A stretch of DNA of 64,000 bases from Podarcis cretensis (taxonomy: Eukaryota): NCBI GenBank assembly GCA_951804945.1, contig OX638159.1, positions 49,724,001 to 49,788,000 of the forward strand, read 5' to 3'. Positions 4,005 to 29,065 of the stretch are shown one piece after another. Position 1 is the stretch's first letter. Every line of letters starts with the position of its first letter. Made by a program: the position numbers and the translations under genes. The notes under the pieces are model-generated. The model was not told the origin of the DNA, did no database searches, and saw only the letters and a program-made list of their open reading frames with translations.

Positions 4005-4028
4005 CTGTTCATCTGCCGCCGTCTCCAT
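4005..4028 (-). CDS. TARS1: Threonyl-tRNA synthetase 1, coding part of exon 1 (METAADEQ)
   Basis: Strong Kozak context ggAagATGG at 4028 and donor CAG|GTAAGG at 4004. Phase 0 matches exon 2, and the exon lies in a CpG island. Confidence 0.8.
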
Positions 4029-4146
4029 CTTCCTTCCTTCCTTCCTTGCACAGGCTGAGCCGGTTCTTCCCTCCGAAGCGGCGAGGAGCCCAATAGCAGC
4101 CCGCGAACTCAACCGGGCTGGCTTCAGTCGCGCAGGCCCCGGCAGC

Positions 4147-4155
4147 TGATGCAAC
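4147..4155 (+). promoter_or_regulatory. C/EBP-ATF response element (CARE/AARE, ATF4 site)
   Basis: TGATGCAAC matches TGATGnAAn, about 120 bp upstream of the TARS1 ATG. Aminoacyl-tRNA synthetase genes are established ATF4 targets. Confidence 0.65.
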
Positions 4156-4517
4156 GCGCCGCAAACGTGCTTCTTCCCGGGCCCGCCCAGGCCGCGGCGC
4201 GGGGCGGAGCGCGAAGGACGGCGATCCCCGGGAGCGAAAGCGGAAGCTGCTCGCTGGCAGCGGCGAGAGAGCGGGGACGCGGCTTGGTTGTTGCGCGCGC
4301 CCGCTCGATCGCTTTCTCCAGAGGGGTCGGGTGGAGTCAGTGCCGGTGCCAGGCTGTTCTTTTTGCGCCAGACACACACCAAATGCATCCCCCTCCCCAA
4401 AATTGCTAACTTCAATTTCAAAAACAAAACAAAACTGGTGTGTGTTAGAAAAAATCAAAAGCACTTGAAACTGCTAAATTTATTTTTTTTTAATTAAATG
4501 CATTTTCACTATTTAGG

Positions 4518-4641
4518 TAATAATAATAATAATAATAATTTATTATTTGTACCCCGCCCATCTGGCTGGGTTTCCCCAGCCACTCTGGGCGGCTTCCAAC
4601 AGAGATGAAAAATACACTAAAAATACACTAAAAATACACTA
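4518..4641 (-). mobile_element. L2 3' tail fragment with (TAA)n
   Basis: Reverse complement of the 702-820 tail. Confidence 0.7.
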
Positions 4642-5098
4642 GGTATATGTTACATAGATTTCCAACCAACTGTACGGTCTTTTTCATACATATGGATATG
4701 GTATGAATTACTTCAAAAGTGATAAAACTTCAGAATATAAAATAAAAATAAAATATCAGATTTAAAAAGATGTAACGAAAACTAATCTGTATAAAAACGT
4801 GCCCTTTCAAAGGTCAGTACTGCACCCCTCTGAAGTCTTTCACACTAATCCAATGATAGCACAGGCCCTGCATAGAGTGGCCGGTTCCTAATGTGCTCCA
4901 CTTTTTGCCATGTATTTTATCTGGTATGAAAGTCGCTGGCAAGTCAGAATTTGTGTCTGGTCTGTCTGCAGCCAGAATGATTAGCAGATAGCTGTGGTTT
5001 TTTTTTTATAAAAAAAAACTTATTTAAATCAAGCACAGCAAAAACCTGTGGCTCTCTGAACGCTATTAGACTGCAGCTGTCATGAGCCCCAGCCAGTA

Positions 5099-5324
5099 CA
5101 ATGGTACCTCGGGTTACATACGCTTCAGGTTACAGACTCCGCTAACCCAGAAATATTACCTCGGGTTAAGAACTTTGCTTCAGGATGAGAACAGAAATTG
5201 TGCTCCGGTGGCGCAGTGGAAGCAGGAGGCCCCATTACCTAAAGTGGTGCTTCAGGTTAAGAACAGTTTCAGGTTAAGAACGGACCTTCGTAACGAATTA
5301 AGTACTTAACCTGAGGTACCACTG
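5099..5324. mobile_element. Tigger-like MITE, family B
   Basis: TA flanks; TIRs CA(A/G)TGGTACCTC...GAGGTACCACTG; copies at 30525 and 45410. Confidence 0.85.
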
Positions 5325-5339
5325 TATTTCTTTAATATT

Positions 5340-5380
<41 letters not shown>

Positions 5381-5883
5381 TAAAAGAAATGCTGGCTGGG
5401 GCTCATGGCAGCTGCAGTCCAATATATATACTGCTGTATCATTCACAGCGGTTTGCAACAATATGAAAACATAAAAAGCAAGATAATGTTTATTTATTTT
5501 ATTAAATTTCTATACCGCCCTTCATCCAAGGATCACAGGGTGATTTACAATATAAAAACACAAGCATACATACCATACTAACAAACAACATACTGAAAAA
5601 AGCACAATACGAAACACTACAATTCTATCAGACACTTATACTTCCCTGTTTTAAGTAATTAGCTGTACTAGCTAATCATAAACACTTCAATTAAGTCTTA
5701 GTTTTTCATTAATTAAATCCAGTTCATAGTATTTAAAACAAAGTCTATACACTATGCTATCTATAAAAAGAAACTTTTCAAAATAGTCCATTATGACTCA
5801 TTGTATTTTTTTTCTTGTTAAGCAGATTAATTTTGCAGATTTAATAAAATAAATAAATCATGGAAAATTAAAAAGAAATTATG

Positions 5884-6272
5884 CGTGCAAAGACAGGCTC
5901 TGGCGGATTGAGCGGAACAGACCAATAGTGGACCCCATAGTTTGGAAGGTGGTTTCTGCACATGCTGTAGAGGGAACTGGGGGGCAGGTGAGGCTTGTCA
6001 ACCTGGGAAGGTGGCCCATCTAGGAGAAGGAAAACTCTGATCCTAAACCTCCACTGTTCTTATCTTTGGGAGGAGAAAAGGCTAAGGAGTAAACCCTACA
6101 CAAATCCAGAGTGGAGTCCCTAAAACAGCTGGGAGGTTGAAAGTGGTGGGTCTTGTCATCTGGGCAGCCCACAACCACCATGTCCTGGGAGATCACTTAG
6201 GTCCTGCTAACACAGCAGTTAGACATCATCCTCAGAGGTGCACTCTATTGTCTCTCGAGACAGACGGATGCT

Positions 6273-6350
<78 letters not shown>
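5884..6350 (+). mobile_element. Non-autonomous RTE-like/SINE-like repeat with (CAG)n(CAA)n tail
   Basis: Shares aaaaggctaaggagtaaaccctacacaaatc with 15567-15927 and 61133-61335, ggaaaactctgatcctaaacct with the 61133 copy, and ttgtctctcgagacagac with the 15567 copy. Ends in a microsatellite tail. Confidence 0.55.
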
Positions 6351-6351
<1 letters not shown>

Positions 6352-6386
6352 GGATTCTAGCCTGAATTTTTCCTTTTGGGTATGTA

Positions 6387-6704
6387 GGGACGCGGGTGGT
6401 GTTGTGGGTCAAACCAGAGCCTAGGGCTTGCCGATCAGAAGGTCAGCGGTTCGAATCCCCGCAACGGGGTGAGCTCCCATTGCTCAGTCCCTGCTCCTGT
6501 CAGCCTAGCAGTTCAAAAGCACGTCAAAGTGCAAGTAGATAAATAGGGGTTTCCATGCGCTGCTTTGGTTCACCAGAAGCGGCTTAGTCATGCTGGCCAC
6601 ATGACCCGGAAGCTGTAACCGGCTCCTTTGGCCAATAAAGCGAGATGAGCGTGCAACCCCAGAGTCTGCGACTGGACCTAATGGTCAGGGGTCCCTTTAC
6701 CTTT
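6387..6704 (+). mobile_element. Sauria SINE (older subfamily)
   Basis: GGGACGCGGGTGG head, B box GGTTCGAATCC, ACCTTT tail. Confidence 0.9.
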
Positions 6705-7276
6705 GTGAGTGATTTTCTTGTTTTCTGATGGAGAAACCAAAGTGTCTAATATATTCAAAGTTGTCTCTGTGTATATACTGTATGAACTGGTGCCTGACTT
6801 TACTTTTGTTTTTTTTTTATTCCTTCCTCCCCACCCTTTTTCCTTGTGTGTCATGCCTTTTAGATTGTTAACAATCAGGGCAGGGACTTAACTTACTATT
6901 GATCTTGTAAGTCACCCTTGGAGCCTTTTGGACTGAAGAGGTGAGTAAAAGTGCTTTAAATAAATAAGAAGATCTTTCACTGTTCAGTTCAAGCATGATG
7001 GTTCACAAATGTACATTAGCAAGTTAACGTATGAAGGTATGTGAAAAAGAAGCTAATTTTTGCAAGAGTCTCACCATTTTGTTTATAAAAAATAATTATA
7101 TCACTGTATGATACAATACTAGAACCATAGATGAGATTCTAAAACTAGAAAATATTTAGTGAAAAACAAACAAATAGGAAACAAAGTTATTTAAAGGAGA
7201 AATGAAAAACTCTGCAACAACTGGTAGATTCTGGAAAGGTGTACATTATTAACATTATGTAATAAATATATTACCT

Positions 7277-7640
7277 GGGACGCAGGTGGCGCTGTGGGTT
7301 AAAGCCTCAGCGCCTAGGGCTTGCCGATCGAAAGGTCGGCGGTTCGAATCCCTGCGGCGGGGTGCGCTCCCGCTGCTCGGTCCCAGCGCCTGCCAACCTA
7401 GCAGTTCGAAAGCACCTCCGGGTGCAAGTAGATAAATAGGGACCGCTTACCAGCGGGAAGGTAAACGGCGTTTCCGTGTGCGGCTCTGGCTCGCCAGAGC
7501 AGCGATGTCACGCTGGCCACGTGACCCGGAAGTGTCTCCGGACAGCGCTGGCCCCTGGCCTCTTAAGTGAGATGGGCGCACAACCCCAGAGTCTGTCAAG
7601 ACTGGCCCGTACGGGCAGGGGTACCTTTACCTTTACCTTT
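7277..7640 (+). mobile_element. Sauria SINE, full length, young subfamily
   Basis: Pol III A box and B box (7341-7351), (ACCTTT)3 tail, TSD AATAAATATA at 7261-7270 and 7641-7650. Confidence 0.95.
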
Positions 7641-8139
7641 AATAAATATAGCCAGGAGAGGGCAGTAAAGTTACACATTTCAGAATATAATCCTTTGTGA
7701 CCTTGATTCTGTTTGGATTCATTTAACCTTTTTCCATTATGATTTTTTTTGTTGCTGTTCTGTTTTGCAATCCTGGAAATTCACATGAAACTATTTCTTG
7801 GCACGGATCCAATACAAAGTGGCACTGTAGGCCAACCAGAGCCAAGTCCAGATTAGAGAGAGCAAGAGCGTTGGGCAAAATTCATTATTGATAGGTCCCC
7901 AACCTTGTTGGAGAGCCTTAGCAAGCTTTTTGCTACTGCTCACAGCCAGTGGCATTGTTCTGTAGCTAAGGGCCGCCATTTAAATTTTCCACAATTCCTC
8001 ACAAAAGGCCATACATCAGGGCATTGTGGGAAATTAAAAGCAGTTAAACTCAATTGCTTGGTGCTGCTCAGAGCACTGCAGTGCATGGGGGGTGGGGAGA
8101 AATTAAAAAGGACCCAGCATGGGGTGGCTCTTCCAAGAT

Positions 8140-8281
8140 GCTAGAGCCCTGGGTTTGAATCCCCACTAAACCATGAAGCTCACTGGGTGACCTTGGGCCA
8201 GTTACTTCCCCTCAGCCAAACCTACCTCACAGGATTGTTGTGGGGATTAAATGAGGAGGGAGAGAGCCATGAGAACCTTGA
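8140..8281 (+). mobile_element. MIR/CORE-like SINE fragment
   Basis: ctgggtttgaatcccc...gtgaccttgggccagttac...cctacctcacaggattgttgtggggattaaatgag resembles the MIR core. Confidence 0.6.
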
Positions 8282-9543
8282 GCTATATAAAAAACACGAG
8301 TTTGGAAAACCTCTGCCAATCAGGTTTGCTAAAGGCAAACTAGATGTGGCATTCATTTTGTGATTGCAATTAAAATGGCACTTTAAAAATGTAAATAGCA
8401 GCTATGGGACAGCCTGAGCAAGTTTGGGACCACGTGGGATAAAAGGAGGGGGTTAACACTTTCTCCTCTATTGTGGTACCAGTGAGAATCATCCCCGCTT
8501 TAGCAGTTTATTTGCATATGGAGGGAAACTTAATACATTCTAATGCATTCTGAATCTGCCCATAACATGCAATCTAATCCTAGGTATGTTTGCTCAGAAG
8601 CAAGTCCCACAGAGTTCACTTTCTCCCAGGAAAATGTGCTTAGGATGGCAGCCCTCCTGGTGTCATTGATTCCCTTTATAATTTGACCACAAAAAATCAT
8701 CAATGTGTACAAAAACAAAAAAGGAACAGAAAAAAACCCTGTGAATGTAGTGTGAATTGATTCTGCTTAGTAACATGGGACAAAAATGGATTCTGTTTAT
8801 TAGTTTATCATACAAAAGTCCATCTGTGCCAATTTCTATGCATGGCTTTGGTATTTACACTGTCTGCCCTGTGAGTGGCACCGAGGGGGCGGGAATGAGC
8901 ACCGTTTGTCTTGTAGAAACCACAGCTGCCAAGCACAGAAAGGACAGTGATTTTTGTATAGGTGAAATGTCTTGGGTCAAATCCTAAGTGGGTGCAGACT
9001 GGTGTAAATATTGAGCTGTATCCATTTCCATCAAGTCTTGCGTTAAATTTACTTTAAAATTGTGGTTGGAAAGACTGGCTGGAATTAGAATGTTATTGAG
9101 TTCACATTCTTCTTAAAACAGGCAGTAAAGAAAGTAGCCAGGAAAATACAATCCAAGGAAATAACAGTGTGAAAAATGGAAGCTGGTGAGCCAGACTAAT
9201 GCCAGGAGCTTGAAATGGGGGTGTATGAGACCTTCTAGAAATGGGGTAAGACGTCACTATTAAAATCAGTATGATGTATCTAGCTTTGAAGGCCCTTGAG
9301 TATATGCCATCTTCTTTTGAACCCAAGTTATGCCTAAACCATCCCGGGAAAACCACTTCTTCTAGCTAGGACATAAAGTGGGTTTTAATGTTTTCAATTA
9401 ACATTTTATTCTGTGAAGCGAAGAGTGAGACCTCATCAGGAAATTCGTAAGTGAAGTTTCTTGATCTCAAACTGGCTTTTCAAACCCAAGAACTAGCTGG
9501 GAATTTTGCAAGACTTCTTATACCATGGCCTGTGTCTACCTAG

Positions 9544-10460
9544 TGTTATAAAAGTTTAACCGGAGACTTGTATTTCCTTTGGTTTTGAAGCATTAAAAAG
9601 TAGTCTAGTTAGATTTCTGGAAAGGGGGCTCTGGAAAATACATCAAGGACTTACTTCTGAGTAAACATGCCTCAGATTAGTTTGCCTGTTATAGGCAGAT
9701 CCAGTACGCATTAGAAACATAGTTTCTCCAAGGTTTGCATGTTTTTTTCCAAGTTACAAGATGTTACGTGGCTAGTTGTCTTTGTCAAATGGTTCTCCTG
9801 AATGTGCTTAGCAATTTTAGAGAAATCATGTGAAACTAAGACAGAAGCTTTTCTAGAAGTTTCAAGAATTTTTATTTAATTGGTGACTGTATTCCAAGCA
9901 GAAGCTCCTATTTATAATGGGCCAGATTACTGCAAGTTGATTCTAGTTTTTGATCATATAATGATTCATCTTGCATACTGATGCCCCCTTTCCATCCCTA
10001 ACTTTTTGACACCTGTTCTTCATCACCCTCCTCCTCCCCTCCCTCCTTCTTCCCCTCCCTCTCTCCCTTTCCCCACCCACCTCTTTCTCTTTCATACCCC
10101 CCTTACTCCCCCCCCCAGTAGGCTGAGAGGGACAGATCTCTGCTGTTGTCAGAGATCAGAACTGATTGCTTGCAGGTTCTAGGACTGCAGCTTGCCCACC
10201 TCGCTTCTGTAAATAAACCCAGATTCTACACCATGAACCAGCTTTTTAAGTATTGGATGTCTGAGTGCATCTTACTTAGTAAGTGTTTTATCCTCATCAA
10301 AGATCCATGCCTTTGAATGCTTGATGGGAGCGTTCCACCTATATTATGTTATTGGCTCAGGCATCACTCTCTACTGAAGCACTTAGTTAGGATCATGGCC
10401 ATCACACTGCGAGATGCATCAAGGCTGGAGGTGGTCGGATACTGACGGATCATAACTACA
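9544..10460 (+). mobile_element. Possible solo LTR (left boundary uncertain)
   Basis: TGTTAT...AACTACA with CTAG on both sides and AATAAA near 10212. An old repeat fragment near 9650 argues that the true start may be further right. Confidence 0.3.
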
Positions 10461-10580
10461 CTAGGCCATACTAGGGAATACTGTGTGGTACGTCTGTGTT
10501 TCTGGCTTGTGGTATCAACCTGGACCTGATGCTGTGACCACAGCTGGAAGCCTCCTGAAAGAAAGGATGTCAGTCTAAGA

Positions 10581-10832
10581 TAGGAGTCAACAAACTTTTT
10601 CAGCAGGGGGCAAGTCCACTGTCCCTCAGACCTTGTGGGGGGGCCAAACTATATTTTTTTGGAGGGGAATGAACAAATTCCTGTGTCCCACAAATAACCC
10701 AGAGATGCATTTTAAATAAAAGGACACATTCTACTCACATAAAAACATGCTGATTCCCGGACCATCCGTGGGCCAGATTTAGAAGGCGATTGGGCTGGAT
10801 CCAGCCTCCGGGGCTTAGTTTGCCTACCCATG
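10581..10832. mobile_element. hAT (Charlie-like) MITE
   Basis: 8-bp TSD GTCTAAGA / GTCTAAGG; degenerate TIRs TAGGAGTCAACAAACT / AGTTTGCCTACCCATG. Confidence 0.75.
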
Positions 10833-11118
10833 GTCTAAGGAATCACAAATCACCTTCTCAATTCTCCTCTTCTGATGTGTCTTAAGTCCAGCTACCTATC
10901 TTGGAAACTTGGTGGGATTCTGAGACAACTGTCTGAGATACTTTTCTTAAAACTACTAAAAGGTAGAAATCAGAGGTATAAATTTTTTTTATCTATAGCT
11001 TCTGCTGAAATACTGTATTGGTGATTATGTTTCATGATGCAGTTGGGAGCGGTGTCTAAAAAGGGATTTTGCAAGAAGGAGTGGCAACCACTGGTTCAGA
11101 GACTGCTGCTATGTGGTA

Positions 11119-11464
11119 AAGGTAAAGGGACCCCTGACCGTTAAGTTCAGTTGCGGACGACTCTGGGGTTGCGGCGCTCATCTCGTTTTACTGGCCGAGG
11201 GAGCCGGCGTTTGTCCGCAGACAGCTTTCGGGTCATGTGGCCCGCATGACTAAGCAACTTCTGGCAAACCAGAGTAGTGCATGGAAATGCCGTTTACCTT
11301 CCCGCTTTATCTACTTGCACTCTGGCGTGCTTTCGAACTGCTAGGTTGGCAGGAGCTGGGACCGAAAAACGGGAGCTCACCCCATCGCAGGGATTCAAAC
11401 TGCCGACCTTCTAATCTGCAAGGCCTAGGCTCTGTGGTTTAACCCACAGCGCCAACTGGGTCCC
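11119..11464 (-). mobile_element. Sauria SINE
   Basis: Reverse-complement head and tail; 13-bp TSD CTGCTATGTGGTA at 11106-11118 and 11469-11481. Confidence 0.92.
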
Positions 11465-12884
11465 AGGTCTGCTATGTGGTAGGGAGGCCATATACCTTAC
11501 TTTACAGAGATCAGTCCTCTATTTGAAGGATTAATTCCAGGTCCAGTTGAAAGATAAAGAACCCTCAGAAGGAAGAGCAAGAAGGGCCTTGAAGTTGCAA
11601 CTGGAGCAAATTGAGCAGGTCCACAGGTCACTTGGGCAGCCTTCGCCATTATGTCAAGATGTACTGTATTTCTCTTAAAATTATAGTATTTCTAAATTAC
11701 TATAGGTGTCAGTCCCATCTATGTAATTGCACTGAGACAACGAAGTGAACTCCAGCAACCTTCCTTTTACAATGACGAAACAAGCAAGCAAACAAACAAA
11801 CAAGAAAGATGGCAGAAATTTAAATGCCATCCAAAATTCTTATTGCTAATTATGTGGATGCTTTCCACCCCATTGCATCTGCTTGGTGGAGAAATGATTG
11901 ACCTATACTCTCAAAAATAAGAATGTGGGAAAGTCTGTGAACTTCAAGAGTTATGCTGGCAACGTTTTGCTGGTATTTCTCCACAGGAAGGCTTAGCTGA
12001 CATTGGAAGAATGGGTGAAAGAGCAGGGAGGCAGGCACCAAGTACCATCCAAATTTGATTAGGCTTTTTGCCACTTCCAGAATCAGAAACTTTGGCCCAC
12101 AATTAATTCCTCTTGCTGGAAACCTACAACACCCCCCTCCCCAAAACACTCCGTGTGACTGGAGATCACAAGGCTCCCTATTGGAAATATTCTCAACAGA
12201 GATTTCAGGAAGGTTAGCTAATGTGAAGCATACTTGTGTAATTCCCATGATGGGCACTGATAACTGGGTCCTGTTCTGTGCGCCAGCAGAGAGTTAAAGG
12301 GAGCCTGGTGACATCCTACAGCTCAGCTGCATGCCAAAAGTAGATGTCGTATAGAATGAAATGCCATTCACCATGCTTTGCTACCCTTGTTTCCAAAACT
12401 GCCAACATCTGAAGAAAACCTAAAGCCAAAAGAGGGAAATTAACGACCTGGCTCTGTGGCCTGAGCCCACACAGCTATCTATTAAAGTTGCAAGATTTAT
12501 TGTCCTAGTACCCAAGTTAAAACTGGCAATGCAGTCAGTGAGAAAGGATAAGCACAATGCCAAGAAGGTTGCTAGCTAACCATGAGAAGAAAAAGAAATG
12601 CTTCTTTGGCTTTCTTTTTCTTTTTTCTTTTTCTTCTTTGCTTTTTGGCCAGTTGAGGCAAGTCTCCCCTCCCTAGATTGTGGGTGGGTGTGGGTGTGCT
12701 TAGTTATGTACCTTTTCCAATTGGCACCTGCTCCCATGCTTGCAAAAAACAACAACACCAGGTTTCTGCCTTAGATCTATCAAAAATGTCCAAAAGAGAG
12801 AAAACACATAACGAAGAAAAGAGATAGGGCATGAGTTTGCATAAAATCTGCATGTGCTCGTTTATATGTGTATTTATATGTGTA

Positions 12885-13245
12885 GCGCAGGTGGCACTGT
12901 GGTCTAAACCACTGAGCCTCTTGGGCTTGCCGATCAGAAAGTTGGTGGTTTGAATCCCCGCGACGGGGTGAGCTCCCGTTGCTCAGTCCCTGCTCCTGCC
13001 AACCTAGCAGTTCAAAAGCACATCAAAAAAAGTGCAAGTAGATAAATAGGTCCAGCGGGAAGGTAAATGGTGCTTCCATGCGCTGCTCTGGTTCACCAGA
13101 AGCGGCTTAGTTATGCTGGCCACATGACCCGGCCACATGACCCACATGACAAATGCCGGCTCCCTCAGCCTACAGAGCGAGATGAGCGCCGCAACGCCAG
13201 AGTCATCCGTGACTGGACCTAACGGTCAGGGGTACCTTTACCTTT
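12885..13245 (+). mobile_element. Sauria SINE with internal micro-triplication
   Basis: Homologous to the other copies; CACATGAC occurs three times at about 13121-13150. Confidence 0.9.
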
Positions 13246-13468
13246 TTTATCTGTATTTACATTGAAATACAGTATTTATATCCGTAGTGATGAAGCCTGT
13301 GGCTTCAGATATAGGGTTCCTTAGTTTAAATAGAGGGCTGCCCTCTGATAGCCCTTCAGAGAGAGGGGGGTTGTCTGTAAAACAGGTTACACAAGGAGGG
13401 CCCACCACAGAACAGGTTTGCTGAGGAGTCGCCTCAAGGCTGGAGTTGACCCTATTTCTCTCTCAAGA

Positions 13469-13489
13469 GTAGTAGTAGTAGTAGTAGTA

Positions 13490-13535
<46 letters not shown>

Positions 13536-13632
13536 CCCACCCATCTGGCTGGGTTTCCCCAGCCACTCTGGGTGGCTTCCAACAAAAGATTAAAAATACA
13601 TTAAAAGATCAGTCATTAAAAACTTCCCACCT
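13469..13632 (-). mobile_element. L2 3' tail with (TAG)n(TAA)n microsatellite
   Basis: accccacccatctggctgggtttccccagccactctggg, as at 4518. Confidence 0.7.
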
Positions 13633-15301
13633 AAAGGCAGGATATAAATGCCATAAATAAATAAATGTGCCCTCGCACCCCAGCATTCGTAGCGAGTGAA
13701 ATGTCTGGCTGTGAACTGCATGTAGGGAGAACTCTGTGAAACTCGCAAGCTGATGCCCTTCTGCCAACACAAGTTGTTCCAGTTAAAAAGGCATAACCCT
13801 CCCTACTTGGCAATAGCGCTATATTCCACAGTTCTCTCGTGAGGCGAACAAGCTGTAAATTCTTCCCCCTCCACTTCCTTCCACTGTAGTACCTCATCTC
13901 CACATTTTTTATTTTAATTTATTTGGTACTCTGACTAGAAACCCTTAGGAACTCTTCCTCCCATCACCCCGCAATAACATTTTAAATTAAGAAGCGAACA
14001 GTAAAAGAAAGCAAATGGGAAGAAAACAATTGTTTATTGGAAAACATCTGTTTGCCTTTAAGGTAATGTAAAAAATTTACAGTGGATTGCTAAGCAATGC
14101 CTTCTGTATTTATAGTTCTGCTTCATTTTCCATTCGCGTATATGACATTAGGGGGTTCCGTGACAAACACCACAAATTGTGTTTGGAGATGAAGTTTGTT
14201 TTCACTCTGGCCTGGATTTCAGCAAGACTTTTTCTTTTTGTTTTTTCAAAATTAAACCATCTACAGAATGGCACATCTGTTGAGGCTGCCTGAGGACACG
14301 GAGCTTGATAAATGTCTACATTTTTTCAGACGTGGGAACTCTTGGGCAAAACGGGATGCCTGCTTTGGCCATTTGCATGCCAGTACCCAGTGTGCTTTTT
14401 CAGCTCACAGCAATTGGATTGTTGTGTCTCAATCCTCGGGATAAAGCAAAAAGTTCAAGCCTGTTTGTGCAGTGCGGGCACACAGAATGCTTTTTCAACA
14501 GTGCAGCCTTTTAAACAATTTCTTGTGTGGTCACCTTCTTGGACTACTGCTCTGAAGCTGGCCACATGATTTCAAAATCTGTTTTGCTGGGTATGCTGCC
14601 TGAAAAATCAGCAGAAATCTGGGCGCATGACAAGACTTACTGGCTCTGCTGCCATTGCCTGACCAATTCCACGTGAATCAAGTCACTCTGGGGCATCATT
14701 TCCCGCTGAACAACGTGGAATTTGTAGTTTCCTGTGGCCCCAGTTCCATTCAGGAAGCTCAAGGCCCAGTGTTGCTCAACAGGAAATAATGCTTCTGAGC
14801 ATGTCCAGGAACAGCTGGCCTGGTTAAGGATCAAGACTACTTTCTCTAGTGAGCACTCCTCTGTTTTCTTTGGTTTTCGATTGAGAAGGGGTTGCTATGG
14901 CTAGCAGAGAGAGACAGCTAGGAGTGGGGACAGATCCCACTATTAATCGCCACGGGGACACCTCAATCAATGCTAAGGCTAAAAGGAAAATGGAAAACTG
15001 GGATTCTTAAGCAACAATGTAAAACATCTCAGAGCATCAGCAAGCAGATTCTCTTAGTTTTTCCTCTTACTTGAGTCAACAGTATTTGGTCTACCTCTGT
15101 TCCACCCTCACTGCTTTGAGCTTCTGTGTTTTATTTGATGGTGTGAGCCTTTCTTATTCACACATTATGTCCACAACTGAGCCCATTGCAGGGAAATGTG
15201 GCAACCAACTATTTTGCAACAAGGCCACAAACCTGGGGGCATTAGATAGGGAATGACTCCATAGTTCAGACCATGCTGTGGTCAAGCGTGTATGTGGAGA
15301 A

Positions 15302-15420
15302 GTCCAGTAGCCTGACTGAAATTCAGTATCTGAAGAAGTGTGCATGCACATGAAAGCTTATACCAAGAACAAACTTAGTTGGTCTCTAAGGTGCTATTGG
15401 ACAATTTTTTAAAAATTTAT
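15302..15420 (+). mobile_element. Penelope-like element pseudo-LTR fragment
   Basis: ctgaagaagtgtgcatgcaca(t)gaaagcttataccaagaacaaacttagttggtctctaaggtgcta. The short inverted copy GTCCAGTAGC (15302) / GCTATTGGAC (15393) is typical of Penelope 5' inversions. Confidence 0.65.
15326..15363 (+). ncRNA. Minimal type I hammerhead ribozyme motif (Penelope-associated, possibly decayed)
   Basis: GTAT-CTGAAGA-A-GTGTG(CATG)CACAT-GAAA-GCTT-ATAC: stem I, conserved core boxes, stem II and palindromic AAGCTT stem III. Confidence 0.6.
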
Positions 15421-15566
15421 ATATATATTTGAAGTTCATATGATCATTTTGATTGATTACTAAGAAAGTCCAACATATTTCCAAGGAGACATAATTAGCT
15501 GATGAGAGGCACTGCTGCTCTTGGGGGGGGAGGAATAAAATTCATGTGGTTTGGGGGGGTTACCCA

Positions 15567-17339: not shown

Positions 17340-17411
17340 TAATGACGACCTGAATGTTTAGAAACATGAACTACTCCTGCTATGCCATATAGCACCATAC
17401 TTGCTAGTGTA

Positions 17412-19014: not shown

Positions 19015-19543
19015 TCATAGAATCATAAAATTGTAGGGTTGGAAGGGACCCCAACAGTGATCTAGTCCAGTCCCTTGCAGGAATATCGACTAGTCAGTGT
19101 TTCCCAACCTTGGGCCTCCAGCTGTTTTTGGACTACAACTCCCATCATCCCTAGCTAGCAAGACCAGTGGTCAGGGATGATGGGAATTGTAGTTCAAAAA
19201 CAGCTGGAGGCCCAAGGTTGGGAAACACTAGACTAGATCATATATAACATCGAACCTCTGCTTAAAAACCTCCAAGGAAGGAGAGTCCACCGTCCCGAGG
19301 GAGTCTGTTCCACTGTTGAGCAGTTCTTACTGTCAGAAAGTTCTTCCTGATGTTTAGCCAGAATCTCCTTTCTCTTAACTTGAATCCACTGGTTTGGGTC
19401 CTACCCTCCAGAGCTTGCACCAGAGCTTGTGGCAGCCCTTTAGATATTTGAAGATGGCTATCATATCTCCTCTCAAACTCCTCTTTCCCAGGCTAAATGT
19501 ACCCAACTCCTTCAACCATTCTCATAAGACTTGGTTTCCATAT
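19015..19543 (-). mobile_element. CR1 LINE 3' fragment with nested palindromic MITE
   Basis: TCATAGAATCATA is the reverse complement of the CR1 (ATTCTATG)n tail; homologous to 39040-39397. Confidence 0.8.
19095..19230. mobile_element. Palindromic hAT-type MITE (~135 bp)
   Basis: Near-perfect arms of about 57 bp; GACTAG on both sides. Confidence 0.8.
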
Positions 19544-19656
19544 TGATAAATGCTGGATAAATGTTCTGGAATGGGCCCACTGAAGTCAACAGAACCAGTC
19601 CAGAAAAAGTAGTTCATGAATTATTATACTTTAGCACCTGATGAGAAATTTGTTTT

Positions 19657-19807
19657 AAAAAGAAAAGAGAAAATGAATTTTAAGCTATTTCAGTAAAACT
19701 TTTGTCTATGTGTGCCTTTTGTTTTTTCAGACTATGGATATGAGAAAAGGTGTTCGTATGATCCCGTTAGTAAGAGACATTTAAATCACATTTGCAGCTC
19801 TTATGGT
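19657..19807. repeat. Left copy of a 151-bp direct repeat flanking an L1 fragment
   Basis: Identical by eye to 20349-20499. Confidence 0.95.
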
Positions 19808-20348
19808 TGGATACAAGACCTTCCCACGCTGGAAGAGTGGCAGACGCAGTTGATGGACTATATGGAACTGGCTGAAATGACTGGCAGAATCCGAAATCTG
19901 GGAGAAGAGACAATGGAAGAGGACTGGAAGAAATTTAAGGACTATTTACAAAAACATTATAAGTTGTATGAATGTTAAGAATCTGCATGACTTGGAAATT
20001 TTAGCTCCTGCAATTAGATTAGGAAAATAGAAAGTTACGTTATAAGTAAGAAAAAGTTGAAATTTAAAGTTATTTTATGTATTATCTTAAGGTATAAATA
20101 TTTGACAAAAGGTACTTTAAATTTAGAAGTAAAACACTCTGAAAGATATAAATAAGATACGAAACAAGGTAATAATTTGCTGATATGTTTATTGTAAAGA
20201 ACGCAGGGTGAGGGAGATGTGGGGAAGTCCAGTTAGTAACCTAAAAATGTATTTTGAAAGTTGGATTGTTTTTCTTTCTTTCTTTTTTCTGGTTTGTCCT
20301 TCTTTTTCTTTTCTGTAAACTGAAAATGTAATAAAAATTTTAATAAAT
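19808..20348 (+). mobile_element. 5'-truncated L1-type LINE (ORF2 C-terminus, 3' UTR, A-rich end)
   Basis: WIQDLPTLEEWQTQLMDYMELAEMT...WKKFKDYL resembles non-mammalian L1 ORF2 ends. Ends in AATAAA-rich sequence and is inserted at TTTT/AAAA. Confidence 0.75.
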
Positions 20349-20499
20349 AAAAAGAAAAGAGAAAATGAATTTTAAGCTATTTCAGTAAAACTTTTGTCTA
20401 TGTGTGCCTTTTGTTTTTTCAGACTATGGATATGAGAAAAGGTGTTCGTATGATCCCGTTAGTAAGAGACATTTAAATCACATTTGCAGCTCTTATGGT
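20349..20499. repeat. Right copy of the 151-bp direct repeat
   Basis: Identical by eye to 19657-19807. Confidence 0.95.
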
Positions 20500-22946
20500 G
20501 GCTAATACAGTAGAGAAAGAAGAACAGGCATTTGTAATGCAAATGCACATCCTGGGAAAACAAACTTATGTGAATCCATGAAAGCCTCTGCTGTGAAAAT
20601 GTTCCCTGCCTTCGACATTTAATGACTGTGTGTCAAGCAGAGAGTATTTCCCTTTCATTTTTTTTTTAAACTGGAAACAAATGAAGAACAAAAACAGCAC
20701 ATGGTATTTCCTCTTAAGTCATGATATTTATTGAACACAGGCAGCCTGATCCTAGGGTGAATCTGAACCACCACAAGACTGAATTTAGGACAGGTGCCAG
20801 TAGCCTACAAGGTATTTTGTCAAGCCAAACCCATGATTGGCCACTTTACATCATTTGGTGGTATACATAGGAGGATTCAACCTGAGTGCTGCTCTGCCAG
20901 GTAAATATCAGATAATTTTGTGGTACTGTAATTTTGTATTATATCCCATCACTCCTAATGGCAAACTCAATTCCCCAGTACAGCCAGAAATGGCAGAGAG
21001 AAACAAGAAGATGATATCAGCATATTTGGGGGGACTCTGCCATTTGCACAAGTTAAAATAATAGCAATACTTTAAACCCTGCCCCTGCTGTTACTTTTTT
21101 TTTTTTTGCTAGTCTCACTTGTTAGTTCTATATGGAATTTCTGGATGTCTTCTGTTATGGCTAGCTTTCATAGTTGGTATTTTTCAAAAGAAAATGCTGA
21201 AAACGAATGCAAATTTGTATTAATACAAATGAAAATTGTCACTCAGCATCTCCCCATTTATCTCCCCATGTTAATCTTGCTGAAACTATTGCGTAAGGGA
21301 CATTTCACTGAAACTTCAGTTTCCATGACCAAATTGCTGTGTTGACAATGTGGGCAGAGTAGATTCACTTCTGGTGAAGCTGTTGTGCCATTCATTCGCC
21401 ATGTGTCCAGTTGTAATCCTGGTCACATTACACGTGCATAGAGTTCCAAAAACAGGCTCATAGAAAAGCAGTTGTGTGGCTATATTGCCTTATGATGGAC
21501 TCTACTTGGACCCACCAAAACTCACATTCTCAGGATGCCAATTTGGTGGTGTGTCTTTTTCTGAGTAAGGAATCCTCCTGCCATATTTATCATTCACTTT
21601 TCCAAATAAGGGCACATTCCATAAGGGGGAGTTATATTGCAAAGAGGACATTCAGATCTGTTTTTTTCTGTGTGCATGCTAGCTTCTACACATTCCTTGG
21701 TGTGTCTCCCCCCCCCCCCCGTCTTATATATTGCTGTTCTGCCGCTTGCCATCCACACCACTGGACAGAGCTTAATGAAACATATCCACAGGTGTTTGTT
21801 TTTGTCCCTCCCCGTTGTCAGTTTAGTTGCAGTTGCAGTACGTGCACTGGGATTGTTGATTATTTTATAGTTTTGGTTCTAATGGTTTAGAAAATATCTT
21901 TTTTATCACTCTAGCACAAGATGACAGTCTCTAAGGTAGTCCCTTCTATGTAGTGGATGGACATCTTGAGAGAACAGCTCATCCTATTCAGTTGTTGAGC
22001 ATGCCTACAGCCTGTGCAGATTGTTAAAGAGAGGAATGATCCTATCGTTTGCGCTTTCAGAAACAAAATAGCTAGGGTTGTGCTCAAGCAAGTAGCAAAT
22101 GGAAGTGGGGGTGCTGAAACCTTACCACACATGTGACAAACTGCCCATCAATAAAAATAAAAATGCTAACAAGTTTACACATCAGCAGTGCCTGTAGTAG
22201 ATATATAAAAGGTTATTTTAATTTACTGGATTTTATTTTGTTTATTTATTTTTGCATAAAGGGGAAATCCAGATTAAAAAAATATTTAAAAAGCATGGGC
22301 TGGAATTTTGATAGCATGGCTGTTGTGCAGATGCTGCCAAAAATAATAATGATGCATGCATGAGCAGCACTGATTGCACAATAAACTCACACCTGATAGT
22401 GTATTTAGAAAGTTTAGGGTGTTGTTTTAATGGCAAATTCCTAGATCATTTTGAAATAATTTGTAGTAATAAATGCTGAAATGTAATTCCTGTAAAGTTC
22501 TCTTGACCTTTGCCCTTCTGCATCTTATTTTATATCTTATTTCCCCAAATATTTCTGATTGTCACTCTGCTGGTATTTCATTATGTTCTACATACAAGGA
22601 AATAATAACATGTTCAGTATTTGATTTGGAGCTGCAATTCTGGTTTTCAGCTGAATCTCGATTTTGATTGGAATTCAGGCCTAATAGCTATACATTATGC
22701 CCTCACAGCTTGTAATAAAACAAGAAAACAATTAAGCCTCAAGGAGAAATCTATAGATATCAGTAACAATTAATTGCACATTTATTCCAAAGCCATTTAA
22801 AATGATTTACCGGTAATTAATTCAACAAAATTGATGAACTTGATCTGGTGATACCAGCTTTTCAAAGTCTTGATAGTCTTTTACACATCCAACACCTCTC
22901 TGCCACCCGCTTGCCTCGGCACCCTGCTAATCCCACAGCCCCCTTT

Positions 22947-23319
22947 TCTTGTTGTTGTTGTTTAGTCGTTTAGGCGTGCCCAACTCTTCGTGACCCCCTG
23001 GACCAGAGCACGCCAGGCACTCCTGTCTTCCACTGCCTCCCGCAGTTTGGTCAAACTCATGCTGGTAGCTTCGAGAACACTGTCCAACCATCTCATCCTC
23101 TGTCGTCCCCTTCTCCTTGTGCCCTCCATCTTTCCCAACATCAGGGTCTTTTCCAGGGAGTCTTCTCTTCTCATGAGGTGGCCAAAGGATTGGAGTCTCA
23201 GCTTCAGGATCTGTCCTTCCAGTGAGCACTCAGGGCTGATTTCCTTGAGAATGGAGAGGTTTGATCTTCTTGCAGTCCATGGGACTCTCAAGAGTCTCCT
23301 CCAGCACCATAATTCAAAA
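22947..23319 (-). mobile_element. BovB (RTE) LINE 3' end
   Basis: Encodes RVPWTARRSNLSILKEISPECSLEG...LEKTLMLGK...RQRMRWLD; (CAA)n tail; 12-bp TSD ACAGCCCCCTTT at 22935-22946 and 23320-23331. Confidence 0.93.
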
Positions 23320-23349
23320 ACAGCCCCCTTTGGGAAACACTAATTCAGA

Positions 23350-23830
23350 GTGAGGTTAATGACTGATTTGCTTAGCTGATGATCCTTATGTGGAACTGGG
23401 CAGGAGTGTGACCATACTAATATTCAAAGACCTCCCAGAGGTATTTGATACAATAGAACCATCTAATCTTCCTAGACTGCCAATTTACTTTAATTTGGGG
23501 GGATACTACTTTGCAGTAGTTAGCTACCAGAAAGTAGCACTAAGTGTCTGCTACTCTCTCCCAGGGGCTCTGACCTGTGGAGTATCTCCCAGTGCCATCT
23601 TATCCCTGGTACTTTTTAATATCTACATGCAACTGCTGGGAAAGATCATTTGGAAGCCTGGAGTATGGTATCGTCAATATAGCAATCAATATGCAGGTCT
23701 TAAAAAGGCAATGATTCTTTTCAAATCCTTTCTTATCAGGATTCTCTGAGGATATGTGGGATTGAAGGTATGAGCTGGATGAGGACCAACAAACAAGCTT
23801 ATCCAGACATGACAGAACTGGTTATGGTGG
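23350..23830 (+). mobile_element. Degenerate L2/CR1-clade reverse transcriptase fragment
   Basis: DLPEVFDTIE and CGVSPSAILSLVLFNIYM are decayed DLSAAFDTID and GVPQGSILSPxLFNIYM motifs. Confidence 0.7.
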
Positions 23831-24516
23831 CAGAATGATGCATGTCTAAAAAGTGTGTCTTCAACGTGAAAAGTTTGGAAAGCTCTGCTGTATACCGTCC
23901 CTAGTTTTGACTGTCATTGATGCCGTTACATTTGGCTTGGTTTGATATTTGTATGTAGCTTTTCCACACTGAGTTTGTATAATCCACAATGTGACAATGT
24001 ATTTGTATCCTGCTCTTCTATTGAAAGTCATTTTCTTTTGTGATGAATTTTAACTGTTTTTATTCTTTGAACATTTCTTAACATTTTACGTACGCCACTT
24101 AGAAATATGTAAATGCAAGTACAACGAACAGTTTCTAACGCAGTAACACTTCCCCAGTCCATCACTCAACCCAGGTCACTCAAGACAACCTAGGCAGTTC
24201 CCAGACTGGACCTAAAACCAGTCTGGAAATGGATCCAAATAATGTTTGGCTCAGCAAATCCTGGAGCTGCATCACATGTTCACCTTACTAAGGTTTACAA
24301 GGCTGGATATAGGGCAATAGTTATTAGTTCTGCCGGGGTCAAGGAGAGACACCTTTTAATAAGGGCCTCACCACAGCCTCCTTCAGGACTTCCTCTGCGA
24401 CACAATTAGACAATTAGACATGTCTGATCTTACTGCTTTAAGCAGCCATTATGGCATCCCTGTGGATGGCTTTACTTCAAAGTCGGTCCATGTTCTCAGT
24501 ACTGATACTATTAACT

Positions 24517-24653
24517 CAGGCTTCCTCAAACTCGGCCCTCCAGATGTTTTTTGGCCTACAACTTCCATGATCCCTAGCTAGCAGGGCCTGTGGTCAGGGA
24601 TGATGGGAATTGTAGTCTCAACACATCTGGAGGGCCGAGTTAGAGGAAGCCTG
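24517..24653. mobile_element. Palindromic hAT-type MITE
   Basis: CAGGCTTCCTC...GAGGAAGCCTG arms; flanks TATTAACT / TATTAAGG; same core as 19095. Confidence 0.75.
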
Positions 24654-26552
24654 TATTAAGGACTTTTAAAAATTGATGTGAATTCAAAGACCAAATAAGC
24701 ATAGAATCTGGAACATTGTAAACTCTGGGAGGGTGCAGAGTTTTCTGTTTCTGTAGATTTCTTAGAGGTGAGGCTGAATCGCTACAGCAGCAAGCTGTAG
24801 TAATTCCCTTTCCTGCCACCCGCCCTGTCCACAGAAAGCTTTTCCAGAGCCGATTATTTTCTGAAAGCCCTCTACCATCTAAAATAAGGGAATAAATGAA
24901 ATAATTTTTGCAGGGATTCTTGGGCCATTGCAACAAGATATCTGTAAAAGAACCTAGAATTTTTGACTACTAACAAAATATAAATAAATCAGTCTGTGTA
25001 ATGCTGGCATAAGGAACTACAGAGATTTCCACTGCAACACGTAACTGACTTCAGTATAATGGTAAATGGCTGTGTTGCACATTGTTCTCCCTTATCAGAA
25101 ATTAGCAAATCACCATATGATTATTTTTATGAAGCATTCATTCTTAGTGAATGTTTTAAAAGTACAATCCTGTATCTTACTGAGTAAATCCCATTCAGTT
25201 CAATTGGGTTTACTCCCAGCTACAAGGGACTTGGATTGCTACAGCCTTAATTACGTACCAGTAGTCAAACAACTTACTCAGGAGTACTTCTGTTGATTTC
25301 AGTGGACTCCCATCATTTTTCATTTTTGTGAAGTGCTTTGGACATTTTGTGCATATTGGAAAGGTGACATTGCAACAACTTAATTAATATCCTACTGAAG
25401 CCAGCAACACATTCCCCCATGGTTTCCATAAATTATAATAGAATACAGTTTGAGAATTGTTGCTTAGAGAACATCATTCTAAATGTACTCAAAACCAAAT
25501 GTGTTTTTTTTTTCCTTCATGGAAAATGCTGATTTAAAAATAAAACACAAGCTCTTTCTGCTGGGAAAGGAAACACTTGGAGACTCACTTTCATGCTGCT
25601 TTTAATTAGAAACTTGCCGAAAATAAACGCTGAAAATGTCATTCATACACAATAAATACCGAAAATGTCACTCAGCAGCCATGTTTCTTTATAGCAGGAA
25701 ACTGTTTGCTCTGTAAATTGTGGAGCTGCTCAGACTTCTCTTGTACATGAACCTTCTCCATTGACTAGATTTGCTACACAGATGCATATTGGAAAGAAGC
25801 ACTGTGTGTGCTTTCTGTAGGGACTGAATTATCTTGCTGGATTTTCCCTGTCATAGCCAAAAAGCAGAATATATCTTATCCTTCCGGCTCCTCTTATAAA
25901 ATTTGGAATCATTCAATTAGTCCACAACATGTGGGATTTGCAACAAAATGTAATGCGGTATACTTGATACTTAGCCTGAACATTGGAAATAGAGGGGATT
26001 CTTGTTACAGCCATGCCTTCCTTAACGCAGCGACCTCATTTACAGTGAAGTGTAGCTTGCAACTGAGGCTGCTTTCAATTAAATCACTTAGTTTGTGCTT
26101 GACACCTTGGTCTTTGTTGCAGGTGGCAAATCAGCACTGCCGTCAAAAAGTCAGGATAGTGACTCCTCATTGCATGTGATCAGGCGGAGGAAACCCCATA
26201 TATCGCAAGACATGATAAATCTACAAAGTGATAAATGTTTAAAATACATATTGATCTTTATTTTTGTGTTGTACTGTATATGATTCCATGTACACTTCCC
26301 TGAAATCTAATAGGATGAAGGGACATTTGAACTTCTAATAGGAAGTATAAATATTCTAATGAAATAAAATTAATTATTATCATGTGCGGAAATGTTTCCA
26401 AAGTATACCTTACTTACATGTCCATCTCACTGAAATGAAGAAAGTAAGAGCCCTGCTGGATCAGGCCAAAGTCTCATGTACTGTAGTCAGAAATCCTTTT
26501 CTCAGTGGTCTAGCCACTGGGTGGGACATGGAAAGCGTAATGCTGCTGGTCA

Positions 26553-26890
26553 ACAAAAGAGGTTTAAAGACTCTCTCAAGGCAAATCTAAAAAAAATGTA
26601 GCATAAACACCGACAATTGGGAAACACTGGCCTGCGAATGCTCCAATTCGAGAACAGCCTGTACCAAGTGTCATGGACTTTGAAGATGCTCAAACTCAGC
26701 ATGAAAGTGAGAAATGTGCTAAGAAGAAGGCACGTTTGGCAAACCCTCACTGTGATCAATTCCTGCCCAGAAACCTATGTCCCCACTGTGGAAGGATGTG
26801 TGGATCCAGAATCGGCCTCCACGGTCACCTGCTGTTAAAACCGTGTTCATAGAAGGCAATCTTACTCGGCTACGAGTGATTACCAAAGAA
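26553..26890 (+). mobile_element. RTE-clade LINE 3' end (degenerate)
   Basis: Frameshifted KDSLKANLKK...NWETLA...CPHCGRMCGSRIGLHGHL, a C-terminal zinc-finger pattern of RTE elements. Confidence 0.65.
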
Positions 26891-28011
26891 ACAGGTGACA
26901 AATTAACACAGGACCTCCTTGTATGCAAATAACAGAAATGTGAAAGTCTTTACATCCACAAACATTCATGCACCGATTAAAGAAGAGTAAGTTTCTAGTC
27001 CTCATGGGGGAGCTGGAGGGTGGCAGGAAGCAGAGACTCTTTAAATGTGTACAGCCAGGAACTGCGACTATAGCTCCGGAGTCCTAGTCCTCCTTCCCAA
27101 GGTGAGGTACTCTGCCTACTCCTTGGGGACATCCTAGCCAGCATTGTGTGCTGGCCGTTTGTTCCCCTGAAGAGGCACACGCATCCCCTGACTGCACGCC
27201 TACTGTTTTTGCTCGGCTCGTAAACAAGCTAGCAACCAGTCCCGCTGATCCGCGAAGCAGGCGATAGTTCAAAGTGGGAGGACCGATGAGAGAGAGAGAG
27301 AGGGACTGACTTCATTGCAATCCGAACATCTGCATACAATGCAGCTTTTAAGCCTAGGGAAGTCCGCCCCCTCTTTGCTGCCCTGCACCTAATTGCATCC
27401 ATGCCGCTGTGCAAAGCAGCGCCCCTTGAAACTTTGCAACGGACCTTTCTCATTCCATGCATTTGAAGTGAAGTCGTACTGGGGTCGGGGCAGCCGCTTG
27501 GGCTTCCATGCACAGGTTTGCAGCGCCCTCGATCTGCGAACCCTCGGGGCACGCAGGCATGCAGCACCCCACCCCCACCCCCTACCCCCCTCTCTCCCGG
27601 AAAAAGGAGGGGAAATCGCGGCTCACTTTCCTCGCCGTTTGCCCACCGGGTCGTCCTCGTTTTTGCAGTCCAGAACAAAGTGGCGGAAGCCCGAGAGGGC
27701 GTCCGGAGGCGCGCGCTGCGGCCAGGGGGGCGGGGCAGAGCAGGGGGCGGGGCCACCGGCAGGCAAGGGGCGTCAATGGCGGTCTCCTCCCACGCACCCC
27801 CCCCCCCACCTCCAGCTCAAACCCGGCCTCGCCGCGCCATGTGTGTGGCGACCAGGCGCGCGGGCTGCTGCCACCCTATTTAAACAGAGGCTATGAGACC
27901 AGGAGGAGCAACGGAGGTCCACCGAGATCACTCAGGAGGCAGAGAGACGGGGGACGGGGGAGGAGGGGGAGGAAGAAGAAGAAGAAAGGGGAGAAGAAGA
28001 AGGAGGAGGAG

Positions 28012-28053
28012 ATGCTCTTGGCGCCCCCGCCACCATCGCAGCATCAGGGATAA
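28012..28053 (+). other. Candidate upstream ORF (MLLAPPPPSQHQG) in the NPR3 5' UTR
   Basis: ATG at 28012 with a purine at -3 and TAA at 28051-28053; lies between the TATA-like box and the main ATG. Confidence 0.4.
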
Positions 28054-28326
28054 GTCGCGGGAGAGTTGTAGTTGAGTTGCAAAACATCCCCCCTTTTTTA
28101 AAAAAGAAAAAGCAACACATTCCCTGCTAGGCATCAAGACGAGAGAGGGAGAGAGAGCGAGAGAGAAAAGACGAGGCGCTCCTTGTTGCTGGATCCATAC
28201 AAACTTTGCAGGGGTTTCTTTTCCTGGCGCGCGCTCTTCTCGCATCTTTGGGTACGTAGTTCCCGTGCATTCAGGAGTGCTTTCCCACCCCTCTCCGAGT
28301 TCTTTTTTCCCTTTTGCATCGCAACC

Positions 28327-29065
28327 ATGCCGTCCTTTTTCTTCCTCGGCTGCTTTTCTTGCAGCCTGATGGCTTGGCTGCTCCTCGCCGGCGGCAGCAG
28401 CAGCAGCAGCAGCAGCCGCCGCCCGGGTGTGCAGGAGGCGGAGGAGGAGGCGGAGGAGGAGAAAGCGCTGCGGGTGCTGGTGCTTCTCCCCAAGGACAAC
28501 GCGTACCTGTTTTCCCTGGCGCGGGTCAAGCCGGCCGTCGAGTACGCGGTGCGGCGCCTGGAGGCGAACGGGACGCTCCTGCCGGCGGGCTACAAGTTCC
28601 GGCTCTTCTACAACGACTCGGATTGCGGCAACGGGGCGTTGTTCAGCCTGGTGGACATGGTGGCCTTGAGCGGCCAGTGGCCGGACCTGCTGCTGGGCCC
28701 CGTGTGCGAGTACGCGGCCGCGCCCGTGGCGCGCCTGGCCTCGCACTGGAACCTGCCCATGATCTCGGCCGGCGCCTTGGCCGCCGGCTTCGGCACCAAG
28801 ACGGGCGAGTACTCGCACCTGACCCGGGTGTCTCCGGGCTACGCCAAGATGGGCGAGATGTTCCTGGCGCTCTTCCGCCACCACAACTGGAACCGGGTGC
28901 TGCTGGTCTACCACGAAGACAAGGAGCAGCGCAGCTGCTTCTTCGCCGCCGAGGGCGTCCATGTGGTCTTCCGCGACGCCGGCTTCCACCTGGACGACTT
29001 CGCCTTCGACGAGAGCGCCAAGTACGCCGAGGACGTGGTGCGCGCCATCCAGGGCGGCGAGAAAG
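28327..29065 (+). CDS. NPR3: Natriuretic peptide receptor 3 (NPR-C), coding exon 1
   Basis: accATG; signal peptide MPSFFFLG...LLLAGG; motifs [24 protein letters not shown] and EYSHLTRV...YAKMGEM; donor AAG|GTGAG, phase 1. Confidence 0.97.

What the first reader, a model, noticed from the sequence alone, without database searches (positions are those of the whole stretch)
4028..28327. TARS1 and NPR3 are head-to-head and only ~24 kb apart: candidate inversion breakpoint
Seen: divergent orientation of the two genes. Recalled: in human and mouse the order is SUB1-NPR3-(several hundred kb of gene desert)-TARS1, all on one strand. Inference: NPR3 has been inverted relative to TARS1 in one lineage, with a breakpoint inside this repeat-rich interval. 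No SUB1 exons were seen here. The arrangement puts a tissue-specific receptor promoter next to a housekeeping, ATF4-responsive promoter and would change which enhancers reach each gene.
Basis: partly seen in the sequence, partly recalled or inferred. Interest (0 to 1): 0.7.

Follow-up and report, generated by a model that had tools for sequence, protein, structure and literature searches.

The report
Ancestral gene order; placental mammals flipped
In this wall lizard the genes TARS1 and NPR3 sit head-to-head 24 kb apart, as bird gene models also imply, so this is likely the ancestral order and the ordinary inversion likely happened in the ancestor of placental mammals, where matching breakpoints are already listed in a published table.

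Summary
TARS1 (minus strand) and NPR3 (plus strand) are intact, found once each, and start 24,299 bases apart. The local order is ADAMTS12+, TARS1-, NPR3+, 163 kb gap, SUB1-, ZFR+, so only NPR3 is turned relative to the recalled human order.

The order is not lizard-specific. RefSeq TARS1 isoform models of three birds begin with NPR3 exon 1 read antisense and spliced to TARS1 exon 2, which needs the same head-to-head layout. Damas et al. 2022 (Dataset S7) list human-lineage breakpoints at chr5:32,615,397-33,060,568 and 33,434,895, both dated theria to eutheria. By recalled human gene coordinates these bracket NPR3 and its gene desert. So the lizard likely keeps the old order, and placental mammals flipped NPR3 with its desert as one block.

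No strand data were obtained for amphibians, fish, marsupials or other squamates, and no long reads were laid across the gap. One side lead seems unpublished: a possible NPR3-antisense/TARS1 chimeric transcript, which would be impossible in placentals. It remains untested in lizards.

The parts
1948..2028 (-). TARS1 coding exon 2 (IIAGGEKKK...GCLE), phase-0 acceptor
   Evidence: covered by RNA reads of a related species
4005..4028 (-). TARS1 coding exon 1 (METAADEQ) followed by a GT donor
3501..4500 (.). TARS1 promoter CpG island
   Evidence: CpG observed/expected 0.85-1.07, GC 0.57-0.58
4147..4155 (+). ATF4/CARE-type site TGATGCAAC, 119 bases before the TARS1 ATG (function untested, consensus recalled)
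   Evidence: background 0.10 per kb
4501..27500 (.). Intergenic interval with scattered SINE-like repeats; the ancestral-type junction that placental mammals likely broke near its TARS1 end
   Evidence: breakpoint position inferred plus recalled human coordinates
27501..29500 (.). NPR3 promoter and exon 1 CpG island
28327..29065 (+). NPR3 coding exon 1
28507..28962 (-). Antisense open frame inside NPR3 exon 1, from an ATG to a donor-like CAG|GTACGC; equals the N-terminal part of three bird TARS1 isoform models; use in lizards not shown
38704..38832 (+). NPR3 exon 2 (approximate bounds)
   Evidence: tblastn
41138..41320 (+). NPR3 exon 3 (approximate bounds)
   Evidence: tblastn

Best explanation
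TARS1 and NPR3 are head-to-head 24 kb apart in this lizard, and this is likely the ancestral amniote order, with NPR3 and its downstream gene desert likely flipped as one block in the stem of placental mammals. Shown: the lizard order and strands. Inferred from gene models: birds share it. Published: two breakpoints on human chr5 dated theria to eutheria. Inferred with recalled human coordinates: one break fell just past the SUB1 3' end and the other about 6 kb before the TARS1 start. NPR3 would then keep its own desert enhancers and only swap which housekeeping gene lies at each end, which would make the flip tolerable and probably near-neutral.
For: Lizard order ADAMTS12+, TARS1-, NPR3+, SUB1-, ZFR-type+, MTMR12-type+, GOLPH3-type+. 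3 of 535 stored proteins match the antisense frame of NPR3 exon 1: TARS1 isoform X2 of Molothrus ater, Sylvia atricapilla and Phalacrocorax aristotelis, E 3e-55 to 9e-49. Their last 110 residues before TARS1 exon 2 are codon-compatible with bird NPR3 read backwards at 108-110 of 110 for 4 of 5 bird NPR3s tested against two of the models (takahe 89-90), and 108-109 of 110 for 3 of 3 against the third; shuffles reach at most 40 and mammal or frog NPR3 51-56. PMC9550189 Dataset S7: chr5 32,615,397-33,060,568 and 33,434,895-33,434,896, both 'theria > eutheria'; NPR3 is named among genes in breakpoint regions. The same table dates breaks at 31,598,737 and 32,117,782-32,286,365 to that branch; the lizard has a PDZD2-like gene on the same strand as GOLPH3 (human tail-to-tail, recalled) and its C5orf22-type gene on another contig, which fits. 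Chicken Z:10.03-10.31 Mb is listed with NPR3, TARS, ADAMTS12 and SLC45A2 within 278 kb. Zebrafish has a 118 kb gap between zfr and npr3 and 15 kb to the next listed gene (the table is a gene subset without strand).
Against: No strand was obtained for NPR3 in any amphibian, fish, marsupial, monotreme, turtle, crocodile or non-lacertid squamate. The 445 kb published breakpoint region contains NPR3 itself, so it does not fix NPR3's orientation in marsupials and may hide more than one event. The authors urge caution on early mammalian branches. Human strands and gene coordinates are recalled; papers seen gave the order only. The bird evidence is predicted gene models, not genome coordinates. PDZD2 was identified by position and layout only; Pfam and the Atlas did not name its giant exon. 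No enhancer or expression test was made.
Confidence: 0.82

Rival explanations
1. The flip happened in the sauropsid stem; mammals keep the old order.
For: Direct or near-direct evidence for head-to-head covers only a lacertid and three birds. The published breakpoint region swallows NPR3 and its early dating is flagged as less certain.
Against: Both flanking breakpoints are dated theria to eutheria. The neighbouring PDZD2-like gene and the C5orf22 junction also fit a pre-placental state in the lizard. Zebrafish spacing looks lizard-like (weak).
Confidence: 0.1
2. A lizard- or lacertid-specific inversion, with the bird layout arising separately or the bird models coming from a stray NPR3 copy beside TARS1.
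For: No orientation was obtained for other squamates; locus tags gave order only.
Against: Three birds of two orders share one junction with near-perfect codon compatibility to intact bird NPR3. There is no long inverted repeat pair marking a young inversion, only SINE-sized hits of about 400 bases or less. It needs two or three events where one suffices.
Confidence: 0.04
3. Misassembly of this genome.
For: No long read was laid across the interval.
Against: No gaps, single copies, both genes whole with exons in order, and independent bird assemblies imply the same layout.
Confidence: 0.01
4. The head-to-head layout is kept by function: antisense transcription from the NPR3 CpG island feeds a second, tissue-specific TARS1 start, and the placental inversion cut this link.
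For: Same junction in three bird models; in-frame ATG and phase-0 donor-like site present in the lizard.
Against: The donor letters are imposed by a Tyr conserved in 15 of 15 NPR3s parsed (2 of 17 not parsed), mammals and sawfish included. Long antisense frames are common in GC-rich exons (recalled), and the top 5 of 8 library hits are unfused antisense frames. Lizard reads at the normal TARS1 exon 1 nearly match exon 2 depth in one run (about 50-60 against 60-75).
Confidence: 0.05

Closest known systems
Human-lineage evolutionary breakpoint regions chr5:32,615,397-33,060,568 and chr5:33,434,895 (Damas et al. 2022, PMC9550189, Dataset S7)
   Same: Same locus (NPR3 is named among breakpoint-region genes) and the positions expected for an inversion of NPR3 with its desert.
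   Different: The table gives coordinates and a branch only, at 300 kb resolution, with no gene-level description of the ancestral head-to-head order; lizards are not mentioned in the passages seen.
Whole-block inversions of a regulated gene with its gene desert, broken beside housekeeping CpG-island genes (genomic regulatory block idea; recalled)
   Same: The long gap stays on the 3' side of NPR3 and the ends abut SUB1 and TARS1.
   Different: Conserved non-coding elements and domain borders were not mapped here.
Bidirectional (head-to-head) promoters, usually under 1 kb apart (recalled)
   Same: Divergent orientation, CpG islands at both starts.
   Different: Two separate islands 23 kb apart, so not a shared promoter.
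Read-through or antisense chimeric transcripts between neighbouring genes (recalled)
   Same: Bird models splice an exon from the antisense strand of a neighbour into exon 2 of TARS1.
   Different: The upstream piece is a coding exon read backwards and in register; expression level and translation are unknown.

Membership tests
NPR3 (NPR-C) orthologue | Closest to NPR-C, with ligand-binding ectodomain, one membrane helix and short tail | tested here: met
   whole 524-aa P. raffonei protein maps in 8 exon hits
TARS1 orthologue (not TARS2 or TARS3) | Best hits named TARS1; adjacent to ADAMTS12; paralogues elsewhere | tested here: met
Lineage-specific (lizard) inversion | Outgroups show the other orientation | tested here: not met
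   three bird models need the lizard orientation
Lineage-specific (lizard) inversion | Inverted repeat pair or scar at both breakpoints | tested here: not met
   only SINE-sized hits in both orientations; absence is expected for an old event
Placental-stem inversion | Breakpoints on both sides dated theria to eutheria | tested here: met
   Dataset S7 rows read; placement against SUB1 and TARS1 uses recalled coordinates
Placental-stem inversion | Marsupial, monotreme and amphibian NPR3 oriented as in the lizard | not testable with these tools
   no eukaryote outgroup genomes held; supplement searches without strand or blank
Bidirectional promoter | Two starts within about 1 kb on one CpG island | tested here: not met
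   two islands, 3501-4500 and 27501-29500
Expressed chimeric NPR3-antisense/TARS1 transcript in lizards | Junction reads from 28507 to 2028 | tested here: inconclusive
   repeats filled the tables; 141 joints and 2,154 loose ends not shown
Misassembly | Long reads fail to span the interval | not tested
   no span was laid; indirect checks negative

The most novel reading that the evidence does not exclude
In reptiles and birds the NPR3 CpG island also fires backwards and splices into TARS1 exon 2, making a tissue-specific threonyl-tRNA synthetase whose extra N-terminus of about 150 residues is the antisense reading of NPR3 exon 1; the placental inversion abolished this transcript.
Probability: 0.07. 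Interest if true: 0.65.

Novelty: already known. Interest (0 to 1): 0.27.

Why it matters
NPR3 is a blood-pressure and height locus in humans (recalled), so it is useful to know that its desert likely moved with it. This is still one of 94 inversions counted on that branch. The chimeric bird models would matter more if they prove to be real, translated and tissue-specific.

Tried and rejected
Locus-tag trick: Phrynocephalus NPR3 is split into an N-terminal piece JRQ81_013016 and a C-terminal piece JRQ81_013017, but no flanking-gene tag of that species turned up, so no agamid orientation. RefSeq accession order was dropped as unreliable: neighbours are 1,398 numbers apart in P. raffonei. The metagenome scan gave 16 loci, 15 at 31-39% identity and one 3-kb contig at 49%; none was examined further. 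The representative search with the antisense frame gave 8 hits; the top 5 carry no TARS1 part. No RNA holder was listed on record in the run search. Laying four RNA or guessed-RNA runs on window 1500-7500 showed TARS1 exons covered and most intron bins empty, but repeats crowded out the junction rows. The first compatibility test for the Sylvia model failed on a motif index and was redone. Supplement searches for strand data in zebrafish, chicken and frog were blank or lacked strand. Three recalled paper ids were not held. Earlier scan findings: none relevant. Three other two-interval protein hits (P0004, P0032, P0326) hit scattered intergenic places too and were set aside as repeat-derived.

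Full report
What is there. The window is G000:C11:49,724,001-49,788,000. Its NPR3 exon 1 is 98% identical to that of Podarcis raffonei, so the animal is a wall-lizard-type lacertid. TARS1 starts at window 4028 on the minus strand and ends at C11:49,705,328; its best named hits are cytoplasmic threonine--tRNA ligase 1 (best 120 of 559 listed). NPR3 starts at 28327 on the plus strand and runs in 8 exon hits to C11:49,799,633. The starts are 24,299 bases apart, on two separate CpG islands. One exon of each gene was searched in the own genome and gave one full match each.

Neighbourhood. To the left lies ADAMTS12 on the plus strand, its last hit 7,080 bases from the TARS1 stop. To the right come a 162,648-base gap, SUB1 on the minus strand, then ZFR-, MTMR12- and GOLPH3-type genes on the plus strand (named by Pfam family and position). 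Papers list the human order PDZD2, GOLPH3, MTMR12, ZFR, SUB1, NPR3, TARS; the strands (SUB1, NPR3 and TARS1 all plus) are recalled. Against that, only NPR3 is turned round between SUB1 and TARS1, and the long gap stays on its 3' side. The interval is no more repetitive than its surroundings (24% against 10-41% in 20 tiles) and shares only SINE-sized hits with the NPR3-SUB1 gap.

Birds share the order. Screening 403 stored proteins against the region showed two bird TARS1 models that also hit NPR3; a third came from the cluster look-up. In all, 3 of 535 stored proteins match the antisense frame of NPR3 exon 1: TARS1 isoform X2 of Molothrus ater, Sylvia atricapilla and Phalacrocorax aristotelis. 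Two other long bird TARS1 models did not match. The three end at the same place and continue into TARS1 exon 2. A codon test asked whether each residue can be the reverse complement of the matching NPR3 codon. It gave 108-110 of 110 for 4 of 5 bird NPR3s against two models (takahe 89-90 in a gapless test), 108-109 of 110 for 3 of 3 against the third, 92-94 for Podarcis, 51-56 for mammals and frog, and at most 40 in shuffles. Such a model can be built only where NPR3 exon 1 lies upstream of TARS1 exon 2 on the opposite strand. Whether or not the transcript matters, three bird assemblies therefore imply the lizard layout. A chicken study lists NPR3, TARS, ADAMTS12 and SLC45A2 within 278 kb of Z, which leaves little room for a desert between NPR3 and TARS; this is weak support.

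Which lineage flipped. Damas et al. 2022 (PMC9550189) reconstructed mammalian ancestors at 300 kb resolution. Their Dataset S7 lists human chr5 breakpoints at 32,615,397-33,060,568 and 33,434,895, both dated theria to eutheria, and Dataset S11 names NPR3 among genes inside breakpoint regions. With recalled human coordinates (SUB1 ends near 32.60 Mb, NPR3 32.69-32.79 Mb, TARS1 starts near 33.44 Mb) these are the two ends of the block that is inverted relative to the lizard. A check on the next block fits too. The table dates breaks at 31,598,737 and 32,117,782-32,286,365 to the same branch. The lizard has four PDZ exon hits and a 1,219-codon frame on the plus strand at C11:50.28-50.35 Mb, the layout of PDZD2, on the same strand as GOLPH3, while its C5orf22-type gene is on C7. 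In human PDZD2 and GOLPH3 are tail-to-tail and C5orf22 is adjacent (recalled). Zebrafish has zfr, a 118 kb gap, npr3 and arid3c 15 kb further on, lizard-like in spacing, but the table is a subset and has no strand. Limits: the wide breakpoint region includes NPR3, the authors urge caution for early branches, and I obtained no NPR3 strand for marsupials, monotremes, amphibians, fish or other squamates.

How it likely works. The simplest history is one inversion in the placental stem, with breaks just past SUB1 and a few kb before TARS1. NPR3 would have carried its desert along, so its own enhancers would keep their place, and only the housekeeping genes at the ends would change. That is inferred; no enhancer or chromatin data were tested.

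The side lead. The lizard has an open antisense frame with an ATG at 28962, where two of the bird models start, and a donor-like CAG|GTACGC after 28507, in the same phase as the normal TARS1 exon 1. The chimera could therefore form here. However, those letters are dictated by a conserved Tyr codon of NPR3, so their conservation proves nothing. The read lay on window 1500-7500 showed TARS1 exons covered, with strand bias in the bulk run (10.9 against 0.46 in the exon 2 bin), but repeats hid the junction rows. It is untested in lizards.

What is in print. Ten full-text searches listed no paper that, by title or abstract start, describes the head-to-head order, this inversion by gene name, or the chimeric transcript; most subscription papers are outside the library. 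Seen of each paper: PMC9550189, main-text passages, supplement list and searches and part 1 of 2 of Dataset S7; Datasets S3 and S12 were searched but not read and may give block orientation. PMC5690287, supplement searches, list and one part of file 8; its large tables could not be read and may hold strand. PMC11004871, PMC8703930, PMC11830294, PMC13467334 and PMC8362798, passages only. PMC4053838, PMC6594659 and PMC10794172, supplement lists or searches only.

Verdict. The feature is real, the lizard order is likely ancestral, and the breakpoints of the likely placental inversion are already tabulated. Interest is low to modest, raised a little by the chimeric bird models.

Noticed in passing
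window 28507-28962 (minus) and 1948-2028 (minus); proteins P0148, P0444, P0185: Three bird RefSeq TARS1 isoform X2 models start with NPR3 exon 1 read antisense and splice to TARS1 exon 2; the frame and donor-like site exist in the lizard.
   Followed up: partly
G000:C11:50,282,814-50,348,843 (L090-L097): PDZD2-like gene on the same strand as GOLPH3, unlike the recalled human layout; fits a second placental-stem rearrangement listed in the same published table.
   Followed up: partly
G000:C7:23,540,169-23,542,677: The C5orf22-type gene (UPF0489), a neighbour of PDZD2 in human (recalled), is on another contig in this lizard.
   Followed up: no
L001, L002, L004 (C3:52.37 Mb, C11:7.58 Mb, C2:27.62 Mb): Three further PC4-family matches; two cover the domain in one open frame and may be processed SUB1 copies.
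   Followed up: no
G000:C11:50,175,519-50,179,271 (L079-L080, minus): A 1,251-codon open frame with reverse transcriptase, RNase H-like and integrase domains, an LTR-retroelement pol, between GOLPH3 and the PDZD2-like exons.
   Followed up: no
G000:C11:50,299,122-50,303,940 (L092, plus): Four long adjacent open frames that look like a nearly whole LINE element between PDZD2-like exons (judged by eye).
   Followed up: no
window 19661-19780 and 20351-20500: A short duplicated stretch flanks an inserted A-rich-tailed element of about 550 bases, possibly a recent insertion (judged by eye).
   Followed up: no
protein P0052: A second, divergent NPR3-like model in the plover Pluvialis apricaria, fused in the annotation to a reverse-transcriptase piece.
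   Followed up: no
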